Source: a virus. Taken from it: DNA of 64,000 nt. Both the position numbers and the translations under genes were made by a program. The notes beneath the pieces were generated by a model. That model saw nothing but the letters and a program-made list of their open reading frames with translations. It was not told where the DNA came from and did not search any database. The stretch is taken from the IMG/VR virus record IMGVR_UViG_3300027963_000040; one strand, 5' to 3'. Below are positions 30,676-39,663 of the stretch, one piece after another. Each line of letters opens with the position of its first letter. The stretch's first letter is position 1.

Positions 30676-31501
30676 AATCCCGTTCCGTGATGTTAGTTAC
30701 GTAGCCAAAATCGTCTGTTGCAACAATATTAGCAACTGGTATCGAAAGGCTAGAGTTTGAAGTTGGTTTACCATTTGCAGTCAATCCAGGCTGCACCTGG
30801 ATGTATGATACAACTGGATTGGATGTATTTGCGACAATGTCACCTTTTACGACAAAGAATTCTGTATTCGAAAACTTGATAACTTTGGAAGTTTTTACCG
30901 GACCGTATAGATAAGCTTTCATAGTGAAATCAAGATTCCAAACCATCGATCTGCGTTCTTTGAAATCGCCTTCGTATACGTCTTCAAGATTAACTCTATT
31001 CAGAACGACCGGTATGTCCATGGTCACATTCATCTCGGGAATAAGATGAACAGTAGTTGTCCAGTCTGGTGTGAAGTAAGGTAGAATCTGCTCTACGATT
31101 TTGTTACCATCTTCGGCATTCTTTACAAGCACGCTGAGTTGAAAGTTGATGTTGTAGGGAACTGGCATATACTGATATTTGTTCTTCGACTTATCATCCG
31201 GGTCTACTACTGCAATACGATTAATCGTCTGGAGTTTTCTAGAACCATCATAGTCGAAGCCAGTCATTTCGAACGCCATCATCGGTAATGGATACGTCGC
31301 TGTTGGGCGATCAATATTAGGATCCTGAACCACACGAGACAGCATTTTGTCTTTTGGTCCGTATGTAATCGGAACTCTTTCGACAAGATTCACGTTACCA
31401 TTTTTATCTGTTCTGCTGATGTAGATACCGTTGAACAAAGTTCCGAACAGGATAATGTATTTACGGATCGATGAGAAGTAGAATGGTGTTGATGAGAACA
31501 T
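30665..31501 (-). CDS. gp15: tail sheath stabiliser / terminator
   Basis: FGTLFN, VPITYGPK, EQILPYFTP. Confidence 0.93.
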   Translation of the reverse strand: MFSSTPFYFSSIRKYIILFGTLFNGIYISRTDKNGNVNLVERVPITYGPKDKMLSRVVQDPNIDRPTATYPLPMMAFEMTGFDYDGSRKLQTINRIAVVDPDDKSKNKYQYMPVPYNINFQLSVLVKNAEDGNKIVEQILPYFTPDWTTTVHLIPEMNVTMDIPVVLNRVNLEDVYEGDFKERRSMVWNLDFTMKAYLYGPVKTSKVIKFSNTEFFVVKGDIVANTSNPVVSYIQVQPGLTANGKPTSNSSLSIPVANIVATDDFGYVTNITERDYGQ

Positions 31502-32243
31502 CAGATTTTGCCCTCACTGAAAGGATCTTTTTCGGTAAAGTCAATAAAGTCATCCGATCCCAGCGGGAAGTTATCAGTTCCTTGCTGAATCGTATCGTTT
31601 TCAGACGCTGGATTGATAGTTTCAGGTTTGTAACCCTCTACAACCAGATAATTACTATCTTCATCAGTCAAATTGACACCCTCTTCATTCATAATAGCAT
31701 AATCAAGAATATTAACAGAGTAATTTTGCTGAATTGCATCGATCTCAGGAATACCAGTGTTGAATTGTTCGTTGCTGTATTCGAAGAGCTCACAAATCAG
31801 TTCCCAAGTCTGCAAAGCACCGAACTGATAAAACATCTCGAACTTATTGACGAACTTGATCTGGAAACATTTGCGATTCAGTGGGAAGTAAATCAGATCG
31901 CCTTCGTTCGGTCTTACCTGATCAGTTACAATAGCAACTTCCTGATTGAACGTTCTCTGGGCAATGCTGAATACAACCTGATCGCGAATCTGCAGTCCAA
32001 ACTTAGACATGAAGTTACCATCGCCAGTAAATCCATCAATTGATTTGATGTAGAGCTCTACCATGATAGCATGATTGTATTGTGATGAATCGTCTTCGCC
32101 GAGAAGCTTATCATAGTTGGTGATAACGCGAGGAATGTAATACATATCCTCGCCGTAGATTTTGATAGACTCTATGATCAGATCCTCGTAAAGGTTCTGT
32201 TCGTTACTAGCAGCAAAATTATTGAAAAAAAATTGGTGGCCAT
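31501..32243 (-). CDS. gp14: neck protein gp14; start codon out of frame by one base at a T8 run
   Basis: Body has YYIPR, SKFGLQIRD, RPNEGDLIYFP, DFTEKDPF. The conserved EQNLYEDLIIESI segment lies upstream of ATG 32145 and joins ATG 32243 only through a -1 shift at 32225-32232. Confidence 0.85.
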
Positions 32244-32902
32244 TAGGCTATACCTCCTGCGGTCTTTGACTTGTTAGCTCTTCTTTTTTCCCAACCAAGT
32301 CTAACTTTTTCTTTCCACTCTTCTGACTGATAATAGCCGGATTCAACACGTTTCTTTTGAGAAACTTTACCAGCGTCAGAAGCTAGTTTTTTTGTGTTTG
32401 GGTTTGACGATCTGGACTCGCTCATTTTTTTTCTCGACTCTTCGCTGTGTTTGCTTCCAACTCTAGAAGCAATAACAGCAGCCGCATGTTCGGCACTATT
32501 TTTAGAGTTTTTTCTTCCGGCGTGAAGTTTAGCGGCATGCTCTTTCGATATACCATTAGGAAATCTTTTTTTGTACGCTTCTCTCAATTTTTTTCTGTGT
32601 TCCTCGGTCATTTGACCTTTAGCCCAACCATCAAAATAAAAGCCATCGTTGTTATGTCTGTTGTAAAATCCCTCATTTAGTTTAGCGTCAACAGATTGAA
32701 GAATTTTTGCTTCCAATTTTCTTATGTCCGCATGTTTCCCTCTAGCAACGATCTGCCTCGAGAAATCTTGAGGTCTCCGATTATACTCTTCCATCATGTA
32801 TTTACTAGAACAAACGTAACCGTCATCCGTCGAACCTTTATGAGATCCGACATACAACTTGTTATTAACTTTATCTGTCCAACAGTACACGAAAGCTTCC
32901 AT
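32243..32902 (-). mobile_element. free-standing GIY-YIG (Seg-like) homing endonuclease gene
   Basis: AFVYCW...LYVGSHKG...YVCSS; NUMOD3-like HSEESRKKMS; inserted between gp13 and gp14. Confidence 0.85.
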
Positions 32903-33764: not shown

Positions 33765-34412
33765 ATGAGCTTACAAAAAATAAGATTTAGCGAACTTGAT
33801 TTTAAATATGATACCGACAGATTATTAAAAGAACTCAATATATTAAAATTTGTTCAATATTTGACTGATGCATCAACTCATACTAATCACTATAAAATGC
33901 CCATATTCAATCAATCACAAATAAAAAATTGTAAAATTTGGAAAGGTATTAATTTAACAAATCCGCCCGATTCAGTTTTTATAAAAAATTCTAGTTTGAG
34001 CAAAATCCGTAATGAGAATAGCGAACTAGAGTGGGTTTGGGTCAAAGAATTTCCTTACATGCAATATATAGTCAAGAGTCTAGGTTTTTTAAAAACAAAT
34101 CTTGTAAGAGTTCTTGTTTTAGAACCCGGATCTATCGGTCCCGTTCACAACGATAACTCTACTGGATCTTACTATAGTGTTAACAGAACGTCGATAACTC
34201 TTAACATAAGCGATGGCGGAAGCCCATTGGTTTTTTTGAACGGAAACGAAATTCATAGTAAGATGCCTGGTCCTACATTTCTATTTAGAGATGATTGTTG
34301 GCATGGGATTCCGGAAACCAAAACACAAAGGTTTCAAGTGAGAATAAACGGAATGATTAACGAAACTGTAAATAAATTGTTATTACAAAATACAATTATG
34401 GAGATTATCTAA
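33765..34412 (+). CDS. 2OG-Fe(II) oxygenase, aspartyl/asparaginyl beta-hydroxylase-like
   Basis: VRVLVLEPGSIGPVHND (HxD), WHG (distal His), downstream Arg. Confidence 0.7.
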   Translation: MSLQKIRFSELDFKYDTDRLLKELNILKFVQYLTDASTHTNHYKMPIFNQSQIKNCKIWKGINLTNPPDSVFIKNSSLSKIRNENSELEWVWVKEFPYMQYIVKSLGFLKTNLVRVLVLEPGSIGPVHNDNSTGSYYSVNRTSITLNISDGGSPLVFLNGNEIHSKMPGPTFLFRDDCWHGIPETKTQRFQVRINGMINETVNKLLLQNTIMEII

Positions 34413-35272
34413 TGAAAATTTACCTTGATCAAGTTCCCGACTCTTTGACTGTTATGGGACACATAAAAGCGACAACGGATTGGAACAAAGCTTGCGAATC
34501 TGTTAAGCCGAAAACAAAAACACATCAATATGAATTCATTATACAGGATTTTGATCAACAATCAATCTTTAATGCAATTCAACATAGCCTTGCAATCTAT
34601 GGAGAACATGGCTGGAAATCTTCTGAAGGCGAATCAAAAGATTATGTCGGATTCAGTCTTGTTTACAATCCAGATCATCAGGAGTATTCGAATCTTCATA
34701 GTAGCACTCTTGGAACCTCTAAAAATCAAAAAAATCAATTTTTTTGGGGTAAAACAGAAACTCATACAAAATTAAAAAATAGTTATTTCGATACGCTCGG
34801 ATTTAATAAACAAACTCCTGCTAGTCAGTTTGATGCGCTCGGAAAGTTTCTTTCTAGAAGAAAATGTCAAATGATACGAGGAAGATTATCTTCTATAGAT
34901 GGTACACAAATAGAAAATACATCTGTTGGCTGGCACAGAGACGAACCCGTATTTGAAAATTTAAGATTGAACGTGCCAATTGTTACTACGAAAGATTACC
35001 TATTTCAGATGGAAGGTAAAGAACCTTGTCATCTTGAAGTCGGTAAAGCATACAGCTGGGATACAAATACGCCTCATAGAGTTTTTAATACAAAGTGGTC
35101 CGAAACGAAACGGACACATCTTGTTATAGGTTTCAGCCCTTGGTTAAATTATAACGAAAAAGAACGTTATTGGGAATCAAATGAATTTTATGGAAAAAAA
35201 CATCCATTTGATATGCTGATAGATGAAGATGTGTTCGCCGGTCTAGATTATAATCAGATGTTCCATTCGTAA
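34412..35272 (+). CDS. 2OG-Fe(II) oxygenase, aspartyl/asparaginyl beta-hydroxylase-like
   Basis: WHRDE, RLNVPI, HLEVGKAYSWDTNTPHRV, RTHLV. Confidence 0.75.
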   Translation: MKIYLDQVPDSLTVMGHIKATTDWNKACESVKPKTKTHQYEFIIQDFDQQSIFNAIQHSLAIYGEHGWKSSEGESKDYVGFSLVYNPDHQEYSNLHSSTLGTSKNQKNQFFWGKTETHTKLKNSYFDTLGFNKQTPASQFDALGKFLSRRKCQMIRGRLSSIDGTQIENTSVGWHRDEPVFENLRLNVPIVTTKDYLFQMEGKEPCHLEVGKAYSWDTNTPHRVFNTKWSETKRTHLVIGFSPWLNYNEKERYWESNEFYGKKHPFDMLIDEDVFAGLDYNQMFHS

Positions 35273-35682
35273 CGATGTGCTGTCGGTTCAATACCGAGGC
35301 TTTTAAAATTCTCAATCATTTCAGGTGAAGCGAGTAATGAAACGATAGTTGTCAAACGTTTCACACCAAGTTCTTTTAATGCGTCAATAGCCATCTGACG
35401 TGTCGTGATTGCAATTCTTTGTTCTCTATATTCCGGTTTCACATAAGTCAAATTAGAGTCGTAAAACTCCGACGTGATTTTATGATAAACCCTAATTCCT
35501 ACTGGAACATCATCAACTTTTAGTAGGAAAAAAATGCCATTCGTAACATTGATATGAGGAATTTCTGGAGCTAGAGCTCCTTTTTCCATTAATTCTTTCC
35601 AGGAATCTCCCCAAAAACCAGCAACAATACCGAAACGTTCTTTATTTTCTTCTGGTTTTACTTGTTCAATTGTAATATTCAT
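35254..35682 (-). CDS. GNAT-family acyltransferase
   Basis: YVKPEYREQRIA motif-A-like segment, LKELGVKRL, size 142 aa. Confidence 0.65.
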   Translation of the reverse strand: MNITIEQVKPEENKERFGIVAGFWGDSWKELMEKGALAPEIPHINVTNGIFFLLKVDDVPVGIRVYHKITSEFYDSNLTYVKPEYREQRIAITTRQMAIDALKELGVKRLTTIVSLLASPEMIENFKSLGIEPTAHRYEWNI

Positions 35683-35695
35683 TTAAATCTCCAAT

Positions 35696-37108
35696 TTACT
35701 TTTTTGCAACTGTTGGAATTGCTTCTTCTCTAATCTGCGGTACTAATTGCTCAATGCCTCTAATTTTACCCCACAAATCTTGTCTATCTTCTGGTAGCTG
35801 ATAATCTTCATCAATAGCAGTAATCTTGTAAGGAAGTGCTCCGGTAGCGGCTTCTAACGCAATAGCAAAGAATGGAAGATGATCCGAGTAAGCTGCATCA
35901 CAAGACAACTTGAAATACTCTCCTTCAAGAAACATACAGGAACCTTTACATACCTGTAATAGAGGACACTTGGCGCAATCATCTCTGAACTTCCAATGCG
36001 TCGATGTATTCAATTTCACATTGGCTAATTGATTAACATGCCCAATTCTATGAGACTTACCATTCGGAGCTTTTGAAACAGCCGTGACATTCTGACAGGT
36101 GAGCACATTGCCCTGAAGATCAACAGCCATGGTATCTTCTTGATCCATACCACACTTCTGACCTAAAGTGTCGGCTGATCTGTAATTACCCCAGCTATTA
36201 AGCCATTCTTGAACTCTTTGTTTGACAATGATGAAACGATTAATATCATTATTACGGATCGCCATCAAAGTAGTCATTCTATGACCTACATGTTCTTCAT
36301 CACCTTGTGGCACATTTTTTTTACCACCTTCATCATATACATCGATGAATCCACCTTCACCGATCATGAAATTGCTCTGTGGATTTAAATTAAACAGATC
36401 CTCAAAGAATGTCTGAATACTAGCGCGATCCATGTTTTCGCGATGCACCATTGAATTGATGCTGATTCTACCTTCAGGAAGGAAGCGATTGAATAATTTA
36501 AACAAGATTTTTCTTTGAACTGGATCTTCAAACGGATCTGGACCTCTTACATTCTGACCTGGACCATCGTGAGATACAGCCATGCTAAAACCCATGTCAT
36601 ACAACCAATCAATGATTTCTTCTGTGATCAAAGAGCCGTTAGTAATAACCGAAAATTTTGTTTTTGGATATTTTTCACGAAGACGTTCAGCCAATGGCTT
36701 CATGATCTTCCAATACACAAAAGGTTCACCACCCCAGAATTCAATTTTCTCTGGTGGGATCTTAAGCCAACTGTCCATGTTATTGATAAATCGATCCATC
36801 AATTTTGTATTCGAATGATCGATGTTCGGTACAAATCTTTGAGAACAATATTCACAAGAGTAGTTACAAGAAAGACCCATCTGAATCTTCAGAAGTTTAA
36901 TGTCCGACTTACTACCTGGAGTATTGACTGAGATTGGCTTTACAGCATCGTTTGACTTTTGAGACCATACCGGTTTGATGTTAACCAATTTGTTCTTAGA
37001 ATCAAAAATCTCAGAAGTCATATTATCGTAAATATAACTTACTTGATCCAATTTTTCAATTTTGTTATCAACAAAAACTGGTTTGGTACATTCTAATAAA
37101 AATTTCAT
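35696..37108 (-). CDS. radical SAM/SPASM-domain peptide or protein maturase
   Basis: CNYSCEYC, WGGEP, ITNG, SHDG; seven-Cys SPASM (KCG, TCQ, CAKCPLLQVCKGSC, SCD). Confidence 0.92.
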   Translation of the reverse strand: MKFLLECTKPVFVDNKIEKLDQVSYIYDNMTSEIFDSKNKLVNIKPVWSQKSNDAVKPISVNTPGSKSDIKLLKIQMGLSCNYSCEYCSQRFVPNIDHSNTKLMDRFINNMDSWLKIPPEKIEFWGGEPFVYWKIMKPLAERLREKYPKTKFSVITNGSLITEEIIDWLYDMGFSMAVSHDGPGQNVRGPDPFEDPVQRKILFKLFNRFLPEGRISINSMVHRENMDRASIQTFFEDLFNLNPQSNFMIGEGGFIDVYDEGGKKNVPQGDEEHVGHRMTTLMAIRNNDINRFIIVKQRVQEWLNSWGNYRSADTLGQKCGMDQEDTMAVDLQGNVLTCQNVTAVSKAPNGKSHRIGHVNQLANVKLNTSTHWKFRDDCAKCPLLQVCKGSCMFLEGEYFKLSCDAAYSDHLPFFAIALEAATGALPYKITAIDEDYQLPEDRQDLWGKIRGIEQLVPQIREEAIPTVAKK

Positions 37109-37136
37109 TATATATTTCCTTTATATCATTCACTAT

Positions 37137-37556
37137 TTATTTACACTGACAATTACAATCACATGCACAATCGCATGCACAAGCACAATTACAATTACAG
37201 TTATTGGTAACAACACCATATGGATTGCAATTATAAGTGCAAGCACAATTGCAATTGTATTGAAGCCAATATCTACCGTCACAATTTGCACAATTTACAT
37301 TATAACAATTTAGACAATTAACACAATTAGTTGGAAAATCGCATGCACAATTACAATTACAGGCACAATTTCCATTATTACAATTACCGTCATTGTTTTT
37401 CTGATACCATTCTTTATTATGAGAAGTGTTCAAATCCCAACCACGTTGACCATCTTTTGTATTATAATAGATGTCTGACATAGCAAACTGACCACCTGCG
37501 CCAATAACAGAGCGCACGTCACCAAAAGATATTGTTCCTGAAGTAGGTGTTCCCAT
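37137..37556 (-). CDS. Asn-Cys repeat protein B (candidate rSAM substrate or fibre-tip protein)
   Basis: 25 Cys in the last ~81 aa; GGA RBS; paralog of 37578-37985. Confidence 0.85.
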   Translation of the reverse strand: MGTPTSGTISFGDVRSVIGAGGQFAMSDIYYNTKDGQRGWDLNTSHNKEWYQKNNDGNCNNGNCACNCNCACDFPTNCVNCLNCYNVNCANCDGRYWLQYNCNCACTYNCNPYGVVTNNCNCNCACACDCACDCNCQCK

Positions 37557-37577
37557 ATCAATTTATTTCCGAATTAT

Positions 37578-37985
37578 TTATTTACACTGACAATCACAAT
37601 TACAATTACAATTACAATTGTTTTGAACACATTGTGAAGCATTGCAATTATACGGTCCGCAATTTCCATCATTACAGTTATTTTGTAACCCATAACCACC
37701 GCAATTGATACAATTAACATTTCCTGCATAAACACAATTTTGACAATTTTGTGGGAAATCGTAGCAATTACAGTTGAAAGTACAATTGCCGTTATTACAG
37801 TTGCCTTCGTTGGTCTTGTTGATATAAGCTTTACCGTAATAGTTACTCATAGCATAAGATTGTTGACCAGGTCTGGTGTTATTGTAAACATAAGCCATAT
37901 CGATGATTGTACCACTGGCGCCACCGCCATTGATTTCAACGTGAATATCATTTAAGCTTAAAGGACCACTGCCCGGTAACGTCAT
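37578..37985 (-). CDS. Asn-Cys repeat protein A (candidate rSAM substrate or fibre-tip protein)
   Basis: 18 Cys, 15 preceded by Asn; starts 1 nt after the stop of the S74 fibre gene. Confidence 0.85.
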   Translation of the reverse strand: MTLPGSGPLSLNDIHVEINGGGASGTIIDMAYVYNNTRPGQQSYAMSNYYGKAYINKTNEGNCNNGNCTFNCNCYDFPQNCQNCVYAGNVNCINCGGYGLQNNCNDGNCGPYNCNASQCVQNNCNCNCNCDCQCK

Positions 37986-37986
37986 G

Positions 37987-39252
37987 TTAAATTCTCTTTT
38001 CTAGTTCTTCAACTTTAGCGGAAAGCTCTTTGATGGCTTCAATTAACAACGGCACAATCTTTTCATACTGAACCGTTTTATAGTTTTCGCCTGATTTAGA
38101 GACATATGTATCCTCATCTATATATTCTCTATCAAATGGAGCCATCTGCACTGCTTCGGGAAGAATTGCTTCAATTTCGTGAGCAATAACACCAACTTGT
38201 TTGCTTTGATCTTTATAACCAAAACCTGCGGCAGTATCATTGCTATTGAATGTCACACCACGAATTGCTTTGACTTTATTCAGAGCATCTGGTATTAGAG
38301 TGATATTGGTTTTTAATCTTACATCAGAGTAATAAGCAATGATGTTACCCGAAGTATGTGTTTCACCTGAAGTGTAAGTCGAGCGAGTGAGAACAATATG
38401 AGCGCCATCCCAATAACTTGCAACCGCAAGGGTACCTTCGTAATATACTGGACCAACAACACCGCTTGATTGCACATAGCCATTGAAATCAAACCTGTCA
38501 CCACCATTGAAGTATAATCGCCTGTCGCCATTTCCAAATACTACTTGTCCTGTGCTACCACTACTTATGTAGGTACGAATTGACCCCGTTACCCCGATGT
38601 CAGAGGTAAATGTATCACCTGCTCTATTTGCAGGTGTATAACCCAATCTTGCTGGAATGTTTGTATAATAAGATGATAGCTGTCCGCTAAAATAAGTTGC
38701 ATTGTTAACAGTGCCATTAATTGCATTAGAATAAGCAGTTGCAGAATTGCCAGTGATTTGACTTTGAATTGTAGCAAGAGTTACGCCGCCATGATATGTG
38801 CTATTATTAGAAGTTAACGTTGCAACGTTAGCCGATAAACCAGCTGTAGTTTGATAGAGTGCAGCAGAATTAGCAACAGCATTACTGTAGGCAGAAGCAG
38901 CATTACCAGTGATCTGACCTTGAACCGTTGTTAATGTCAACCCACTAAAGTTATTTGAATTATTAGCAGTACCTTGATAGATTGTGGAATTGACTGTAAC
39001 ACCAGAAAGTGATAATTGTCCACCAGTAATACTTGTGTTAACAGTAGCATTACCAACAAAATATGATGATGTACTTATTGTGACGTTAGCACCAACCACA
39101 ATTGATGTGGTAGCATTAGCTGTTGCTGTATTAACGGATGTTGCATTGAGTGATGTTGCAGTGATGACTGATGCATTGACTGCAGTTGAATTAGCTGTGA
39201 AGTTTCCGTTGACGGTTAGCCCGTTCTTTACTACGAAATTGTTATTTGCCAT
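37987..39252 (-). CDS. tail fibre with C-terminal peptidase-S74 intramolecular chaperone
   Basis: YSDVRLKTNI, VGVIAHE, YEKIVPLLIEAIKEL. Confidence 0.9.
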   Translation of the reverse strand: MANNNFVVKNGLTVNGNFTANSTAVNASVITATSLNATSVNTATANATTSIVVGANVTISTSSYFVGNATVNTSITGGQLSLSGVTVNSTIYQGTANNSNNFSGLTLTTVQGQITGNAASAYSNAVANSAALYQTTAGLSANVATLTSNNSTYHGGVTLATIQSQITGNSATAYSNAINGTVNNATYFSGQLSSYYTNIPARLGYTPANRAGDTFTSDIGVTGSIRTYISSGSTGQVVFGNGDRRLYFNGGDRFDFNGYVQSSGVVGPVYYEGTLAVASYWDGAHIVLTRSTYTSGETHTSGNIIAYYSDVRLKTNITLIPDALNKVKAIRGVTFNSNDTAAGFGYKDQSKQVGVIAHEIEAILPEAVQMAPFDREYIDEDTYVSKSGENYKTVQYEKIVPLLIEAIKELSAKVEELEKRI

Positions 39253-39285
39253 CTCAGTTCCCTATCCCTTGAGATTGTTTTTTAC

Positions 39286-39293
39286 TATTTATA
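39286..39293 (-). promoter_or_regulatory. late promoter of the fibre/Cys-protein/rSAM operon
   Basis: TATAAATA. Confidence 0.75.
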
Positions 39294-39663
39294 CCCAAGG
39301 TAAAGCTTTAGGCAATATAGGATTTTTTAAAAGATTTAATTTTTTTTGCAATAATTCATTAATTTTATCATCCGGAGACAATGCATATTTTTCGCCAGGC
39401 ATTTGTCCAGGTATAGTTTTTGCTGTAATTATACTTTTAATCCATGACACAATAAGATCTTTGTTTAGTTCGTTAAATGGTACATAATCTTGCGGTAGAA
39501 CATCGACAGCGGTGAATTCAGTTTCGCCATCAAAAACGACTGTATTACCATCTTCGTCGATTGCAATTTTTTTCCAATGAATTAACACAACAGCATCAGG
39601 ATGATCCGGTGATTCATTTCTTACATATAAATTAGTAATTTCCCAATCATATTTTATCGTCAT
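39289..39663 (-). CDS. tail-fibre-associated hypothetical protein
   Basis: 124 aa, between two S74 fibres, ends LPW. Confidence 0.7.
   Translation of the reverse strand: MTIKYDWEITNLYVRNESPDHPDAVVLIHWKKIAIDEDGNTVVFDGETEFTAVDVLPQDYVPFNELNKDLIVSWIKSIITAKTIPGQMPGEKYALSPDDKINELLQKKLNLLKNPILPKALPWV

What the first reader, a model, noticed from the sequence alone, without database searches (positions are those of the whole stretch)
33765..39293. Phage-encoded RiPP-like maturation system attached to the tail-fibre operon (radical SAM/SPASM, Asn-Cys repeat proteins, GNAT and two hydroxylases)
Seen: behind a TATAAATA late promoter the order is S74 tail fibre, Asn-Cys protein A, Asn-Cys protein B, rSAM/SPASM (CxxxCxxC plus seven-Cys SPASM, with an N-terminal extension that could be a peptide-recognition element) and GNAT. 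Two AspH-like 2OG-Fe(II) oxygenases lie convergently. AATAAATA late-like boxes also precede protein B and the rSAM gene. The block is visibly AT-rich and sits between the fibre genes and gp13. Known: SPASM rSAM enzymes install thioether crosslinks in Cys-rich peptides (sacti/ranthipeptides; NxxcB links Cys to the Asn beta-carbon), and AspH-type enzymes hydroxylate Asp/Asn in Cys-rich domains. Inference: the phage builds heavily crosslinked or modified small proteins late in infection, most plausibly virion fibre-tip components and otherwise a released peptide or metal-binding product. I know of no described system of this kind.
Basis: partly seen in the sequence, partly recalled or inferred. 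Interest (0 to 1): 0.92.

Follow-up and report, generated by a model that had tools for sequence, protein, structure and literature searches.

The report
Radical-SAM maturation of phage fibre tips
This T4-like phage encodes two small asparagine-cysteine-rich proteins next to a tail-fibre gene and a dedicated radical-SAM enzyme, a pairing that recurs in hundreds of unrelated phages and prophages and points to an undescribed enzymatic (probably cross-linking) modification of the fibre tip that recognises the host.

Summary
In detail: every gene is at the stated coordinates. Behind a TATAAATA box lie an S74 tail fibre, two paralogous Asn-Cys proteins, an rSAM/SPASM enzyme and a weak GNAT. Two AspH-like oxygenases lie convergently.

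- Of 93 loci carrying an rSAM homologue, 72 also encode a CxCxC protein, usually a tail fibre ending in (Asn-Cys)n.
- In the reverse direction, 56 of 72 viral contigs chosen only for a C-terminal NCNCNCNC tail carry this rSAM. Fourteen others are cut too short to tell, and the last two are spurious ORFs.

The Asn-Cys end is always C-terminal, or is made so by a Hint or S74 self-cleaving domain. Short Asn-Cys proteins follow S74 fibres in myo-, podo- and siphovirus contexts.

Best reading (0.6): the enzyme cross-links, probably by thioethers, a fibre-tip module, and oxygenases hydroxylate it.

Oxygenases recur across the family, but this pair is absent from the closest relatives. The GNAT is clade-specific. 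The chemistry is unproven.

This scan found the same system earlier on other DNA. I found no paper describing it. The closest known systems are QhpD/QhpC, CrpC/CrpA and NxxcB/PapB.

The parts
39286..39293 (-). TATAAATA late-promoter-like box upstream of the S74 fibre gene
   Evidence: Exact match. All 7 matches in the window are on the minus strand.
37987..39252 (-). Tail fibre (421 aa) with a C-terminal Peptidase_S74 intramolecular chaperone. Self-cleavage is predicted before Ser309.
   Evidence: PF13884, E 1.5e-13, residues 309-368. Tail-fibre PHROGs. S309, D310, R312, L313 and K314 are invariant in 15 homologues.
37578..37985 (-). Asn-Cys protein A (135 aa). It has a folded N-terminal domain (about residues 1-57), a conserved Asn-Cys domain and an (xC)n tail ending QCK.
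   Evidence: Family of 27 similar-length and at least 104 longer relatives, with no Pfam assignment for this domain. AF2 pLDDT is about 80 for residues 1-57 and about 30 for the rest. 15 of 18 Cys are preceded by Asn.
37137..37556 (-). Asn-Cys protein B (139 aa), a paralogue of A with a longer tail
   Evidence: BLASTP against A, E 2e-14. 25 Cys, 16 preceded by Asn. Present in L297 and L298; absent in L003, L295 and L299.
35696..37108 (-). Radical SAM/SPASM enzyme (470 aa), phrog_1802 family, with a conserved N-terminal extension of about 70 aa
   Evidence: PF04055 and TIGR04085 are above their cut-offs. phrog_1802, E 2.5e-58. CxxxCxxC and 7 SPASM Cys are invariant. 548 clusters (50% identity) score E<=1e-30.
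35254..35682 (-). GNAT-like acetyltransferase (142 aa), restricted to this clade
   Evidence: PF00583 at 19.3 bits against a cut-off of 20.7; phrog_1249, E 6e-6. Found only in the window and in L003 and L295-L299.
34412..35272 (+). AspH-like 2OG-Fe(II) oxygenase (286 aa)
   Evidence: PF05118 at 21.6 bits against a cut-off of 22.6. A profile of orthologues that lie beside the rSAM in RSP15, L045, L049 and L066 hits it at E 4.9e-57.
33765..34412 (+). Second, divergent AspH-like protein (215 aa)
   Evidence: No Pfam, PHROG or NCBIfam hit. The Atlas places it with viral PF05118 clusters (score 0.96) and gives structural TM 0.66-0.78. An HxD...H pattern is visible in the sequence.

Best explanation
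This is the local form of a widespread phage system that chemically matures the distal end of tail fibres.

The phage makes two paralogous proteins of about 135 aa. Each has a small folded N-terminal domain, an Asn-Cys-rich domain and an (x-Cys)n C-terminal tail. The radical SAM/SPASM enzyme encoded immediately downstream acts on them. It most likely converts Cys thiols into thioether cross-links to carbon atoms of neighbouring Asn, Asp, Ala or Gln residues (ranthionine-type, as made by NxxcB, PapB, QhpD and CrpC). The two AspH-like oxygenases probably beta-hydroxylate Asn or Asp in the same domain.

The product would be a covalently stapled module that resists reduction and proteases. It would form part of the fibre tip, either capping the S74-processed fibre encoded just upstream or forming a short fibre of its own. 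There it would serve receptor binding or tip stability.

What is shown: the gene identities, the near-obligate genomic pairing of rSAM with the (Asn-Cys)n tail, the fibre context, and the requirement that the tail be C-terminal.

What is inferred: that the enzyme modifies these proteins (about 0.9), that they are virion fibre components (about 0.7), and that the modification is a thioether (about 0.55). A role for the GNAT is unsupported.
For: 1. Forward association. The rSAM has homologues at 43-50% identity in Ralstonia phage RSP15 and Achromobacter phage JWF. Both sit just downstream of tail-fibre genes whose products end in, or contain, NCxC runs. Of 93 loci with an rSAM homologue, 72 encode a same-strand CxCxC protein, mostly 170-560 aa proteins ending in runs such as NCNCDCNCC. 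The same holds for 59 of 80 bacterial (prophage) loci.

2. Reverse association. 120 viral contigs were chosen only by a DNA pattern encoding NCNCNCNC. 72 have a C-terminal tail ORF, and 56 of these carry the rSAM family on the same strand (median 1.1 kb downstream). 14 of the other 16 have under 4 kb of flank, and the last 2 are spurious ORFs. Only 1 of 20 internal runs has the rSAM.

3. Fibre identity. Tail carriers hit tail-fibre PHROGs and contain collagen repeats; the JWF carrier is annotated as T4 gp36-like in its record. Short Asn-Cys proteins directly follow an S74 fibre in myovirus, SU10-like podovirus and GpJ siphovirus contexts (15 of 25 distinct proteins). One member is itself fused to Peptidase_S74 (29.2 bits, cut-off 22).

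4. The C-terminus matters. The tail ends at the stop codon, or is followed directly by a Hint domain (Pfam Hint families appear in many of at least 104 longer relatives) or by an S74 domain.

5. Asn-Cys is the unit. Asn precedes 325 of 459 Cys in the family and 246 of 364 in fibre-type carriers, against a 9% Asn background. The other residues at that position are mostly Asp, Ala and Gln. This is the same set NxxcB accepts as beta-thioether acceptor (PMC9389541).

6. Enzyme class. The SPASM motif is complete. The top NCBIfam hits are PapB, geopeptide, nif11, QhpD and CcpM maturases. CteB and anSME are among the best PDB hits.

7. Precedent. CrpC installs ranthionine links on a Cys-rich protein. 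Its two paralogous substrates share an N-terminal domain that aids binding (PMC13692751).

8. Oxygenases. 2OG oxygenase genes of several families sit between the tail gene and the rSAM in many loci.
Against: - There is no biochemical or proteomic evidence for any modification or for virion incorporation.
- All matches to characterised maturase families fall far below their curated cut-offs (PapB 65.9 against 340; QhpD 55.5 against 453; TIGR04463 33.4 against 525).
- The best PDB sequence match, 8VPO, is cited in a paper on rSAM cyclopropyl synthases, which form C-C bonds. Sequence therefore does not fix the chemistry.
- The Asn-Cys domain could not be modelled (pLDDT about 30).
- The closest relatives lack the oxygenase pair and protein B, so hydroxylation is not essential.
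- The x positions of the tails drift between Asn, Asp and Ala among near-identical phages. That fits a loose acceptor requirement but also fits a purely structural or metal-binding role.
- The oxygenases are on the opposite strand with no recognisable promoter.
Confidence: 0.6

Rival explanations
1. The enzyme modifies the Asn-Cys proteins, but with other SPASM-type chemistry. Candidates are Cys oxidation to formylglycine (as by anSME), epimerisation, C-C or C-O cross-links, or a link between adjacent Asn and Cys that gives backbone thiomorpholine rings (by analogy with the TqqB morpholine).
For: anSME gives one of the few full-length alignments (NCBIfam residues 76-391; PDB 4k37 residues 74-387). 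The top PDB hit, 8VPO, is cited in a cyclopropyl-synthase paper. YydG epimerase is also hit. TqqB links adjacent residues (PMC9389541), and Asn-Cys adjacency is the conserved feature here.
Against: The substrates are extremely Cys-rich, and Asn, Asp, Ala and Gln occupy the acceptor-like positions, as in thioether systems. The anSME substrate motif CxPxR is absent from both proteins. The highest NCBIfam scores go to thioether-forming families.
Confidence: 0.2
2. The (Asn-Cys)n tail is mainly a metal-binding or Fe-S-binding needle at the fibre tip, like the His-Fe needle of T4 gp37 (own knowledge). The rSAM plays only an accessory role.
For: An alternating CxCxC strand would put all thiols on one face. 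The fibres are trimeric, as the S74 chaperone fusion implies. Cys positions are invariant while the x positions drift. AF2 cannot fold the domain on its own.
Against: This does not explain the near-obligate pairing with a SPASM rSAM, the recurrent oxygenases, or the strong preference for Asn before Cys.
Confidence: 0.1
3. The Asn-Cys proteins are precursors of a released product (a bacteriocin-like or metal-scavenging RiPP). The N-terminal 57 aa would act as a leader, and the product would not be a virion part.
For: The layout is leader-like: a Cys-free N-terminal domain followed by a Cys-rich core, with two paralogues, as in CrpA/CrpB. The rSAM has an N-terminal extension that aligns partly with the pre-core region of RiPP maturases. 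A shared SGxIS(F/L) motif precedes the tails.
Against: No protease, exporter or immunity gene lies in the block. In most loci the tail is part of a 170-560 aa fibre protein. There are S74 and Hint fusions. The genes sit inside the late structural block.
Confidence: 0.07
4. The adjacency has no functional meaning, and the rSAM acts on something else such as a nucleotide, DNA or host metabolite.
For: Phage rSAM genes with other roles exist. The N-terminal core also matches viperin-like enzymes weakly.
Against: The association holds in both directions across myo-, sipho- and podovirus contexts and prophages. Substrate architecture clusters on the enzyme tree (35 changes against a shuffled mean of 56.8).
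Confidence: 0.03

Closest known systems
QhpD/QhpC (with QhpG) of quinohaemoprotein amine dehydrogenase
   Same: An rSAM/SPASM enzyme installs several Cys-to-Asp/Glu thioethers in a small Cys-rich protein, which then becomes a subunit of a larger assembly. A separate oxygenase also modifies it (own knowledge). QhpD is among the top NCBIfam hits.
   Different: The score is 55.5 bits against a cut-off of 453, and only the N-terminal core aligns. There is no dehydrogenase context. The substrate here is an (Asn-Cys)n fibre module of a virus, and the oxygenases are 2OG-type.
CrpC/CrpA of Methanococcus voltae (Dieter et al. 2026, PMC13692751)
   Same: A SPASM rSAM puts ranthionine cross-links on a Cys-rich protein rather than a short peptide. 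Two paralogous substrates share an N-terminal domain that helps enzyme binding. The Cys-rich part models poorly.
   Different: CrpC belongs to TIGR04463, which the window enzyme hits at only 33.4 bits against a cut-off of 525. Crp is archaeal and has no link to virions. Its motif is C-x-x-Q/D in 17-residue repeats, not Asn-Cys dipeptides. The paper does not mention phages.
Ranthipeptide maturases NxxcB/NxxcA and PapB/PapA
   Same: They form a beta-thioether between Cys and Asn (NxxcB) or Asp (PapB). NxxcB also accepts Ala, Gln and Asp, which are the residues found before Cys here. An (NC)n run is a dense overlapping NxxC array. PapB is the top NCBIfam hit.
   Different: The score is 65.9 bits against a cut-off of 340. 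Those substrates are short leader-plus-core peptides from bacteria. Here the substrates are fibre proteins or 135-aa proteins, and the modified end must be C-terminal.
AspH-type beta-hydroxylation of Cys-rich EGF domains, and the beta-hydroxylase operons predicted to act on tail-collar and collagen-like proteins (Iyer et al. 2010, PMC2938197)
   Same: AspH-family 2OG oxygenases are encoded next to Cys-rich or phage-fibre-like proteins that are proposed as their substrates.
   Different: Those operons pair the hydroxylase with sulfotransferases, not with an rSAM. Both proteins here fall at or below the PF05118 threshold. The EGF consensus is not present.
Fibre-tip maturation in known phages: the S74 intramolecular chaperone, gp38-type adhesins of T2/S16, and the His-Fe needle of T4 gp37 (own knowledge)
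   Same: A small protein or special C-terminal structure finishes the distal tip of a trimeric fibre. A self-cleaving C-terminal domain exposes the mature end.
   Different: None of these involves a dedicated modifying enzyme. No sequence or fold similarity to the Asn-Cys proteins was found.

Membership tests
Radical SAM / SPASM subfamily | CxxxCxxC cluster motif and the radical SAM core | tested here: met
   PF04055 at 42.6 bits against a cut-off of 29.5. C81, C85 and C88 are invariant in 11 homologues.
Radical SAM / SPASM subfamily | C-terminal SPASM domain with seven Cys for two auxiliary clusters | tested here: met
   TIGR04085 at 33.2 bits against a cut-off of 27, residues 319-394. C319, C338, C378, C381, C387, C391 and C403 are invariant.
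Ranthipeptide maturases (PapB NF047865; NxxcB) | Score above the curated family cut-off | tested here: not met
   PapB scores 65.9 bits against a cut-off of 340, covering the N-terminal core only.
Ranthipeptide maturases (PapB NF047865; NxxcB) | Substrate with Cys and nearby Asn/Asp acceptors | tested here: met
   7 (protein A) and 11 (protein B) NxxC motifs. Asn precedes 71% of family Cys. Acceptor set as described in PMC9389541.
Ranthipeptide maturases (PapB NF047865; NxxcB) | Thioether product | not testable with these tools
   Needs mass spectrometry of co-expressed proteins.
RiPP system in the strict sense | Short precursor with a leader that is bound by an RRE and then removed | tested here: inconclusive
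   The N-terminal 57 aa form a folded, conserved domain. The rSAM N-terminal extension aligns only partly with the pre-core region of RiPP maturases. No protease is present. Most substrates are whole fibre proteins.
QhpD (TIGR03906) | Family score, and a quinohaemoprotein amine dehydrogenase context | tested here: not met
   55.5 bits against a cut-off of 453. No such genes appear in the ORF list or Pfam scan of the block and its flanks.
CrpC family (TIGR04463) | Family score | tested here: not met
   33.4 bits against a cut-off of 525.
Anaerobic sulfatase maturase (TIGR03942) | Family score, and a C/S-x-P/A-x-R substrate motif | tested here: not met
   38.8 bits against a cut-off of 349. The motif is absent from both Asn-Cys proteins.
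Peptidase_S74 tail fibre | C-terminal intramolecular chaperone domain with the conserved Ser-Asp..Lys cleavage motif | tested here: met
   PF13884, E 1.5e-13. S309, D310 and K314 are invariant.
Asp/Asn beta-hydroxylase (PF05118) | Pfam gathering score | tested here: inconclusive
   286-aa protein: 21.6 bits against a cut-off of 22.6. 215-aa protein: no Pfam hit, but Atlas score 0.96 to PF05118-bearing viral clusters and TM 0.70.
GNAT acetyltransferase (PF00583) | Pfam gathering score | tested here: inconclusive
   19.3 bits against a cut-off of 20.7. phrog_1249, E 6e-6.

The most novel reading that the evidence does not exclude
Many phages use a dedicated radical-SAM enzyme, often with oxygenases, to turn an (Asn-Cys)n tail at the distal end of their receptor-binding fibres into a ladder of thioether, and perhaps hydroxy-Asn, cross-links. 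This would be the first radical-SAM post-translational modification of a virion structural protein. It would also be a new motif chemistry centred on adjacent Asn-Cys, carried on a cassette (S74 fibre, Asn-Cys module, rSAM) that moves between myo-, sipho- and podoviruses.
Probability: 0.5. Interest if true: 0.9.

Novelty: new variant of a known kind. Interest (0 to 1): 0.85.

Why it matters
Tail-fibre tips decide which bacteria a phage can infect. So far they have been understood as products of folding, chaperones and self-cleavage only. A dedicated enzymatic cross-linking and hydroxylation step would add a new layer to virion assembly.

The step appears to be common. The enzyme family has 548 clusters at E<=1e-30. 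At least 560 viral stretches and 159 stretches in the species-representative bacterial genomes encode relatives, many of them prophages of freshwater Betaproteobacteria.

If confirmed, it would:
- extend rSAM thioether chemistry from small peptides to structural proteins of viruses;
- define a new substrate motif, (Asn-Cys)n at a free C-terminus;
- provide a simple sequence signature for annotating fibre-tip modules;
- offer robust, reduction-resistant protein staples for engineering.

Tried and rejected
- The AF2 model of protein A gave confidence only for residues 1-57. Foldseek against the PDB found nothing.
- AF2 plus Foldseek on the accessory 'fam2' protein of relatives gave only a generic Ig-like beta-sandwich. 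This protein is absent from the window.
- Megablast and tblastn of the block and of protein A against 50,697 phage records found nothing.
- No whole genome is held for this window.
- Ten literature searches found no description of the system.
- The sigma-70 promoter scan did no better than shuffled sequence.
- BLASTP shows no similarity between the 215-aa and 286-aa proteins. Calling both 'AspH-like' therefore rests on separate weak evidence for each.
- I first took the phage for a cyanophage and dropped the idea. The large terminase is closest to Sinorhizobium phiN3/phiM12 (56%) and to pelagiphage Mosig (48%).
- The GNAT was rejected as a core part of the system, because it occurs only in this clade.


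Full report
**Observation**

- An S74 tail fibre lies at 37987-39252(-) (PF13884, E 1.5e-13).
- Two Cys-rich proteins follow, of 135 aa (37578-37985) and 139 aa (37137-37556).
- Next comes a 470-aa radical SAM enzyme (35696-37108). PF04055 and the SPASM model TIGR04085 both score above their cut-offs.
- Next comes a 142-aa GNAT-like protein, just under the Pfam threshold.
- Two genes converge on this block from the plus strand. One encodes a 286-aa protein that just misses the PF05118 cut-off. The other encodes a 215-aa protein with no family hit; the ESM Atlas places it among viral PF05118 clusters.

Other details also hold. TATAAATA lies at 39286-39293(-), and all seven copies in the window are on that strand. 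The low GC is real and partly reflects AAT-TGT codon runs. The Cys counts are exact: 18 Cys with 15 after Asn in protein A, and 25 with 16 after Asn in protein B. The block sits between the fibre genes and gp13, gp14 and gp15 of a T4-like myovirus. The large terminase is closest to phiM12-like and pelagimyophage terminases, so the host is unknown.

**Forward association**

The rSAM belongs to phrog_1802 (E 2.5e-58). It has homologues at 43-50% identity in Ralstonia phage RSP15 (Ackermannviridae) and Achromobacter phage JWF (annotated with a lambda-J-like central tail fibre). In both it lies a few genes downstream of tail-fibre genes.
- JWF gp028 is a gp36-like fibre that reads NCNCDCNCNCS immediately before a Hint domain.
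- The RSP15 side tail fibre ends NCQCGN.
- RSP15 ORF046 is an orthologue of the window's 286-aa oxygenase.

IMG/VR scans gave 14 and then 80 loci. At least 560 stretches encode relatives. In 72 of 93 loci a same-strand ORF carries CxCxC. This is nearly always the extreme C-terminus of a 170-560 aa protein lying 1-3 kb upstream of the rSAM. Most loci without it are truncated contigs. These carriers hit tail-fibre PHROGs or contain collagen repeats.

GTDB species genomes gave 159 relatives. They are mainly prophages of Limnohabitans, Polynucleobacter, Comamonadaceae and Burkholderia, and 59 of 80 loci have tails. In 1.84 billion representative proteins the family has 548 clusters at E<=1e-30.

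**Reverse association**

I picked 120 viral contigs solely by a degenerate DNA pattern for NCNCNCNC.
- 72 have the run within 12 residues of an ORF's end. Of these, 56 carry an rSAM-family gene on the same strand, at a median of 1.1 kb downstream.
- 14 of the remaining 16 have under 4 kb of flank.
- The last two are spurious ORFs.
- Only 1 of 20 internal runs has the rSAM. These are mostly spurious ORFs or ORFs on giant-virus contigs.

The pairing is close to obligate in both directions.

**The Asn-Cys proteins**

Protein A has 27 similar-length relatives, all from unannotated metagenomes. It also has at least 104 longer relatives of 306-466 aa, many with Hint-domain Pfam hits.

The alignment shows three parts:
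- a Cys-free N-terminal domain starting MTLPxSGxISxS;
- a domain with fixed spacing and invariant Asn-Cys pairs;
- a variable (xC)n tail.

AF2 models the first 57 residues at pLDDT about 80 and the rest at about 30. A profile of the N-terminal domain finds it only in front of Cys-rich regions in the DNA I hold. A similar SGxIS(F/L) strand sits about 10 residues before the tail in many short and fibre-type carriers (42 of 80). It is a candidate recognition element.

Asn precedes 71% of family Cys and 68% of Cys in fibre-type carriers, against a 9% background. Asp, Ala and Gln make up most of the rest. Between near-identical phages the tails differ only at the x positions.

**Link to fibres and to a free C-terminus**

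The tail either ends at the stop codon or is followed at once by a self-cleaving module. That module is usually Hint. In L212 it is a Peptidase_S74 domain, scoring 29.2 bits against a cut-off of 22, with the sequence reading ...NCNCNCNCAC-FW-SDDTLK. S74 is the intramolecular chaperone of trimeric fibres and spikes (own knowledge), so the Asn-Cys protein behaves as a fibre-type protein.

Short stand-alone members follow an S74 fibre gene directly, often with overlapping stop and start codons. This holds in T4-like phages, in an SU10-like podovirus contig and in a GpJ siphovirus contig. All fibres that share the window's tip domain are followed by the Asn-Cys gene and the rSAM.

My reading is this. 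This last step is inference.

**Accessory genes**

2OG oxygenases of several families (PF13759- and PF13640-like, and the AspH-like fam29) lie between the tail gene and the rSAM in many loci. So does a protein of 250-340 aa ('fam2', 46 loci). Its model shows only an Ig-like sandwich, and it is absent from the window.

Within the window's own clade:
- L297 and L298 have the same architecture as the window.
- L003, L295, L296 and L299 have one Asn-Cys gene and no oxygenases.

The oxygenase pair and protein B are therefore optional. The GNAT occurs only in this clade, whose tails end in Lys (QCK or QCGK). That is a lead, not evidence.

On an rSAM tree the substrate architecture is clustered (35 changes against a shuffled mean of 56.8). 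Related rows share labels, so this shows only consistency.

**Mechanism**

The enzyme has every SPASM feature. Its best NCBIfam hits are thioether-forming maturases (PapB, QhpD, CcpM and SCIFF maturases), all far below their cut-offs.

Several published findings bear on the chemistry.
[quoted passage not shown] That is the residue set seen before Cys here, and an (NC)n run is a dense NxxC array.
- CrpC shows that SPASM enzymes can cross-link Cys-rich proteins, helped by a shared N-terminal domain (PMC13692751).

I therefore commit to thioether cross-linking of the Asn-Cys module, with hydroxylation by the AspH-like enzymes, giving a stapled fibre tip.

The caveats are real. The best PDB sequence hit, 8VPO, is cited in a cyclopropyl-synthase paper. 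anSME aligns over its full length. Conserved Asn-Cys adjacency could also mean links between neighbouring residues, as TqqB does for Thr-Gln, or metal binding.

**Novelty**

Ten full-text searches found no description of this system. The large rSAM-RiPP compendium paper does not mention phages. Iyer et al. 2010 predicted that beta-hydroxylase operons modify tail-collar proteins, but without an rSAM.

This scan has met the same system on other genomes and reached similar conclusions. One of those notes gave me the CrpC paper, which I read myself.

I class the finding as a new variant of a known kind. The enzyme class and the likely chemistry are known. The substrate (virion fibre tips), the motif and the coupling to self-cleaving domains are new.

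Noticed in passing
window 32243-32902 (-) and 31501-32145 (-): A NUMOD3-containing protein, which looks like a homing endonuclease, sits between gp13 and gp14 (PF07460, 24.5 bits). The gp14 ORF aligns to the T4 neck-protein profile only from profile position 62, so its N-terminal part is missing from this ORF.
   Followed up: partly
L004 8440-9670, L005 2820-4062, L017: A RimK-like ATP-grasp gene (PF08443, E 3.6e-11) and a protein of about 100 aa lie next to Asn-Cys-Hint genes in T4-like relatives. This may be a further modification of the peptide.
   Followed up: partly
L009 4378-5819, L011 13158-13856, L045, L049, L066: Proteins of about 240 aa rich in His boxes (HRxLxHRQF-type motifs, no Pfam hit), often paired and membrane-like by eye (not tested), recur beside the rSAM. 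They may be another class of O2-dependent enzyme in the module.
   Followed up: no
L104 11426-11671, L156, L112, L172, L198: A second class of 67-82-aa proteins ends ...FYDDYST(A/N)CNCNCNC plus a few residues. In three of these five loci, up to four more distant rSAM-like genes lie nearby (E 1e-11 to 1e-51 against my profile).
   Followed up: no
L009 5855-6742, L011 8209-9102, L111, L275, L278: Long Asn-Cys family members carry an uncharacterised C-terminal domain of about 170 aa. It starts CSKIIC and ends in a hydrophobic stretch. It has no Pfam hit, and it could be a third kind of processing or anchoring domain.
   Followed up: partly
L007 4791-6107 and 7001-8443; L021 4437-5858 and 9086-10492: Two rSAM paralogues occur in one locus. 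In L021 each lies next to its own tail-bearing protein.
   Followed up: no
window 37137-37985 compared with L298 3212-4056: Between near-identical phages the tails keep every Cys but swap Asn, Asp and Ala at the x positions (NCNCNCNCDCQCK against NCNCNCDCACQCK). The AAT-TGT hexamer arrays may promote such change.
   Followed up: partly
window 35254-35682; L003, L295-L299: The GNAT gene occurs only in the clade whose Asn-Cys tails end in Lys (QCK or QCGK). These loci all belong to one lineage, so the correlation is weak.
   Followed up: partly
L100, L103, L106, L113, L121, L136, L167, L169 (giant-virus MAG contigs): The DNA pattern for NCNCNCNC also occurs in giant-virus contigs. There it is mostly out of frame or lies inside unrelated ORFs, and no rSAM is present.
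   Followed up: no
window 39289-39663 (-): A DUF7936 protein (PF25590, E 2.2e-9) lies between the two S74 fibre genes. The same arrangement is conserved in L297 and L298.
   Followed up: no
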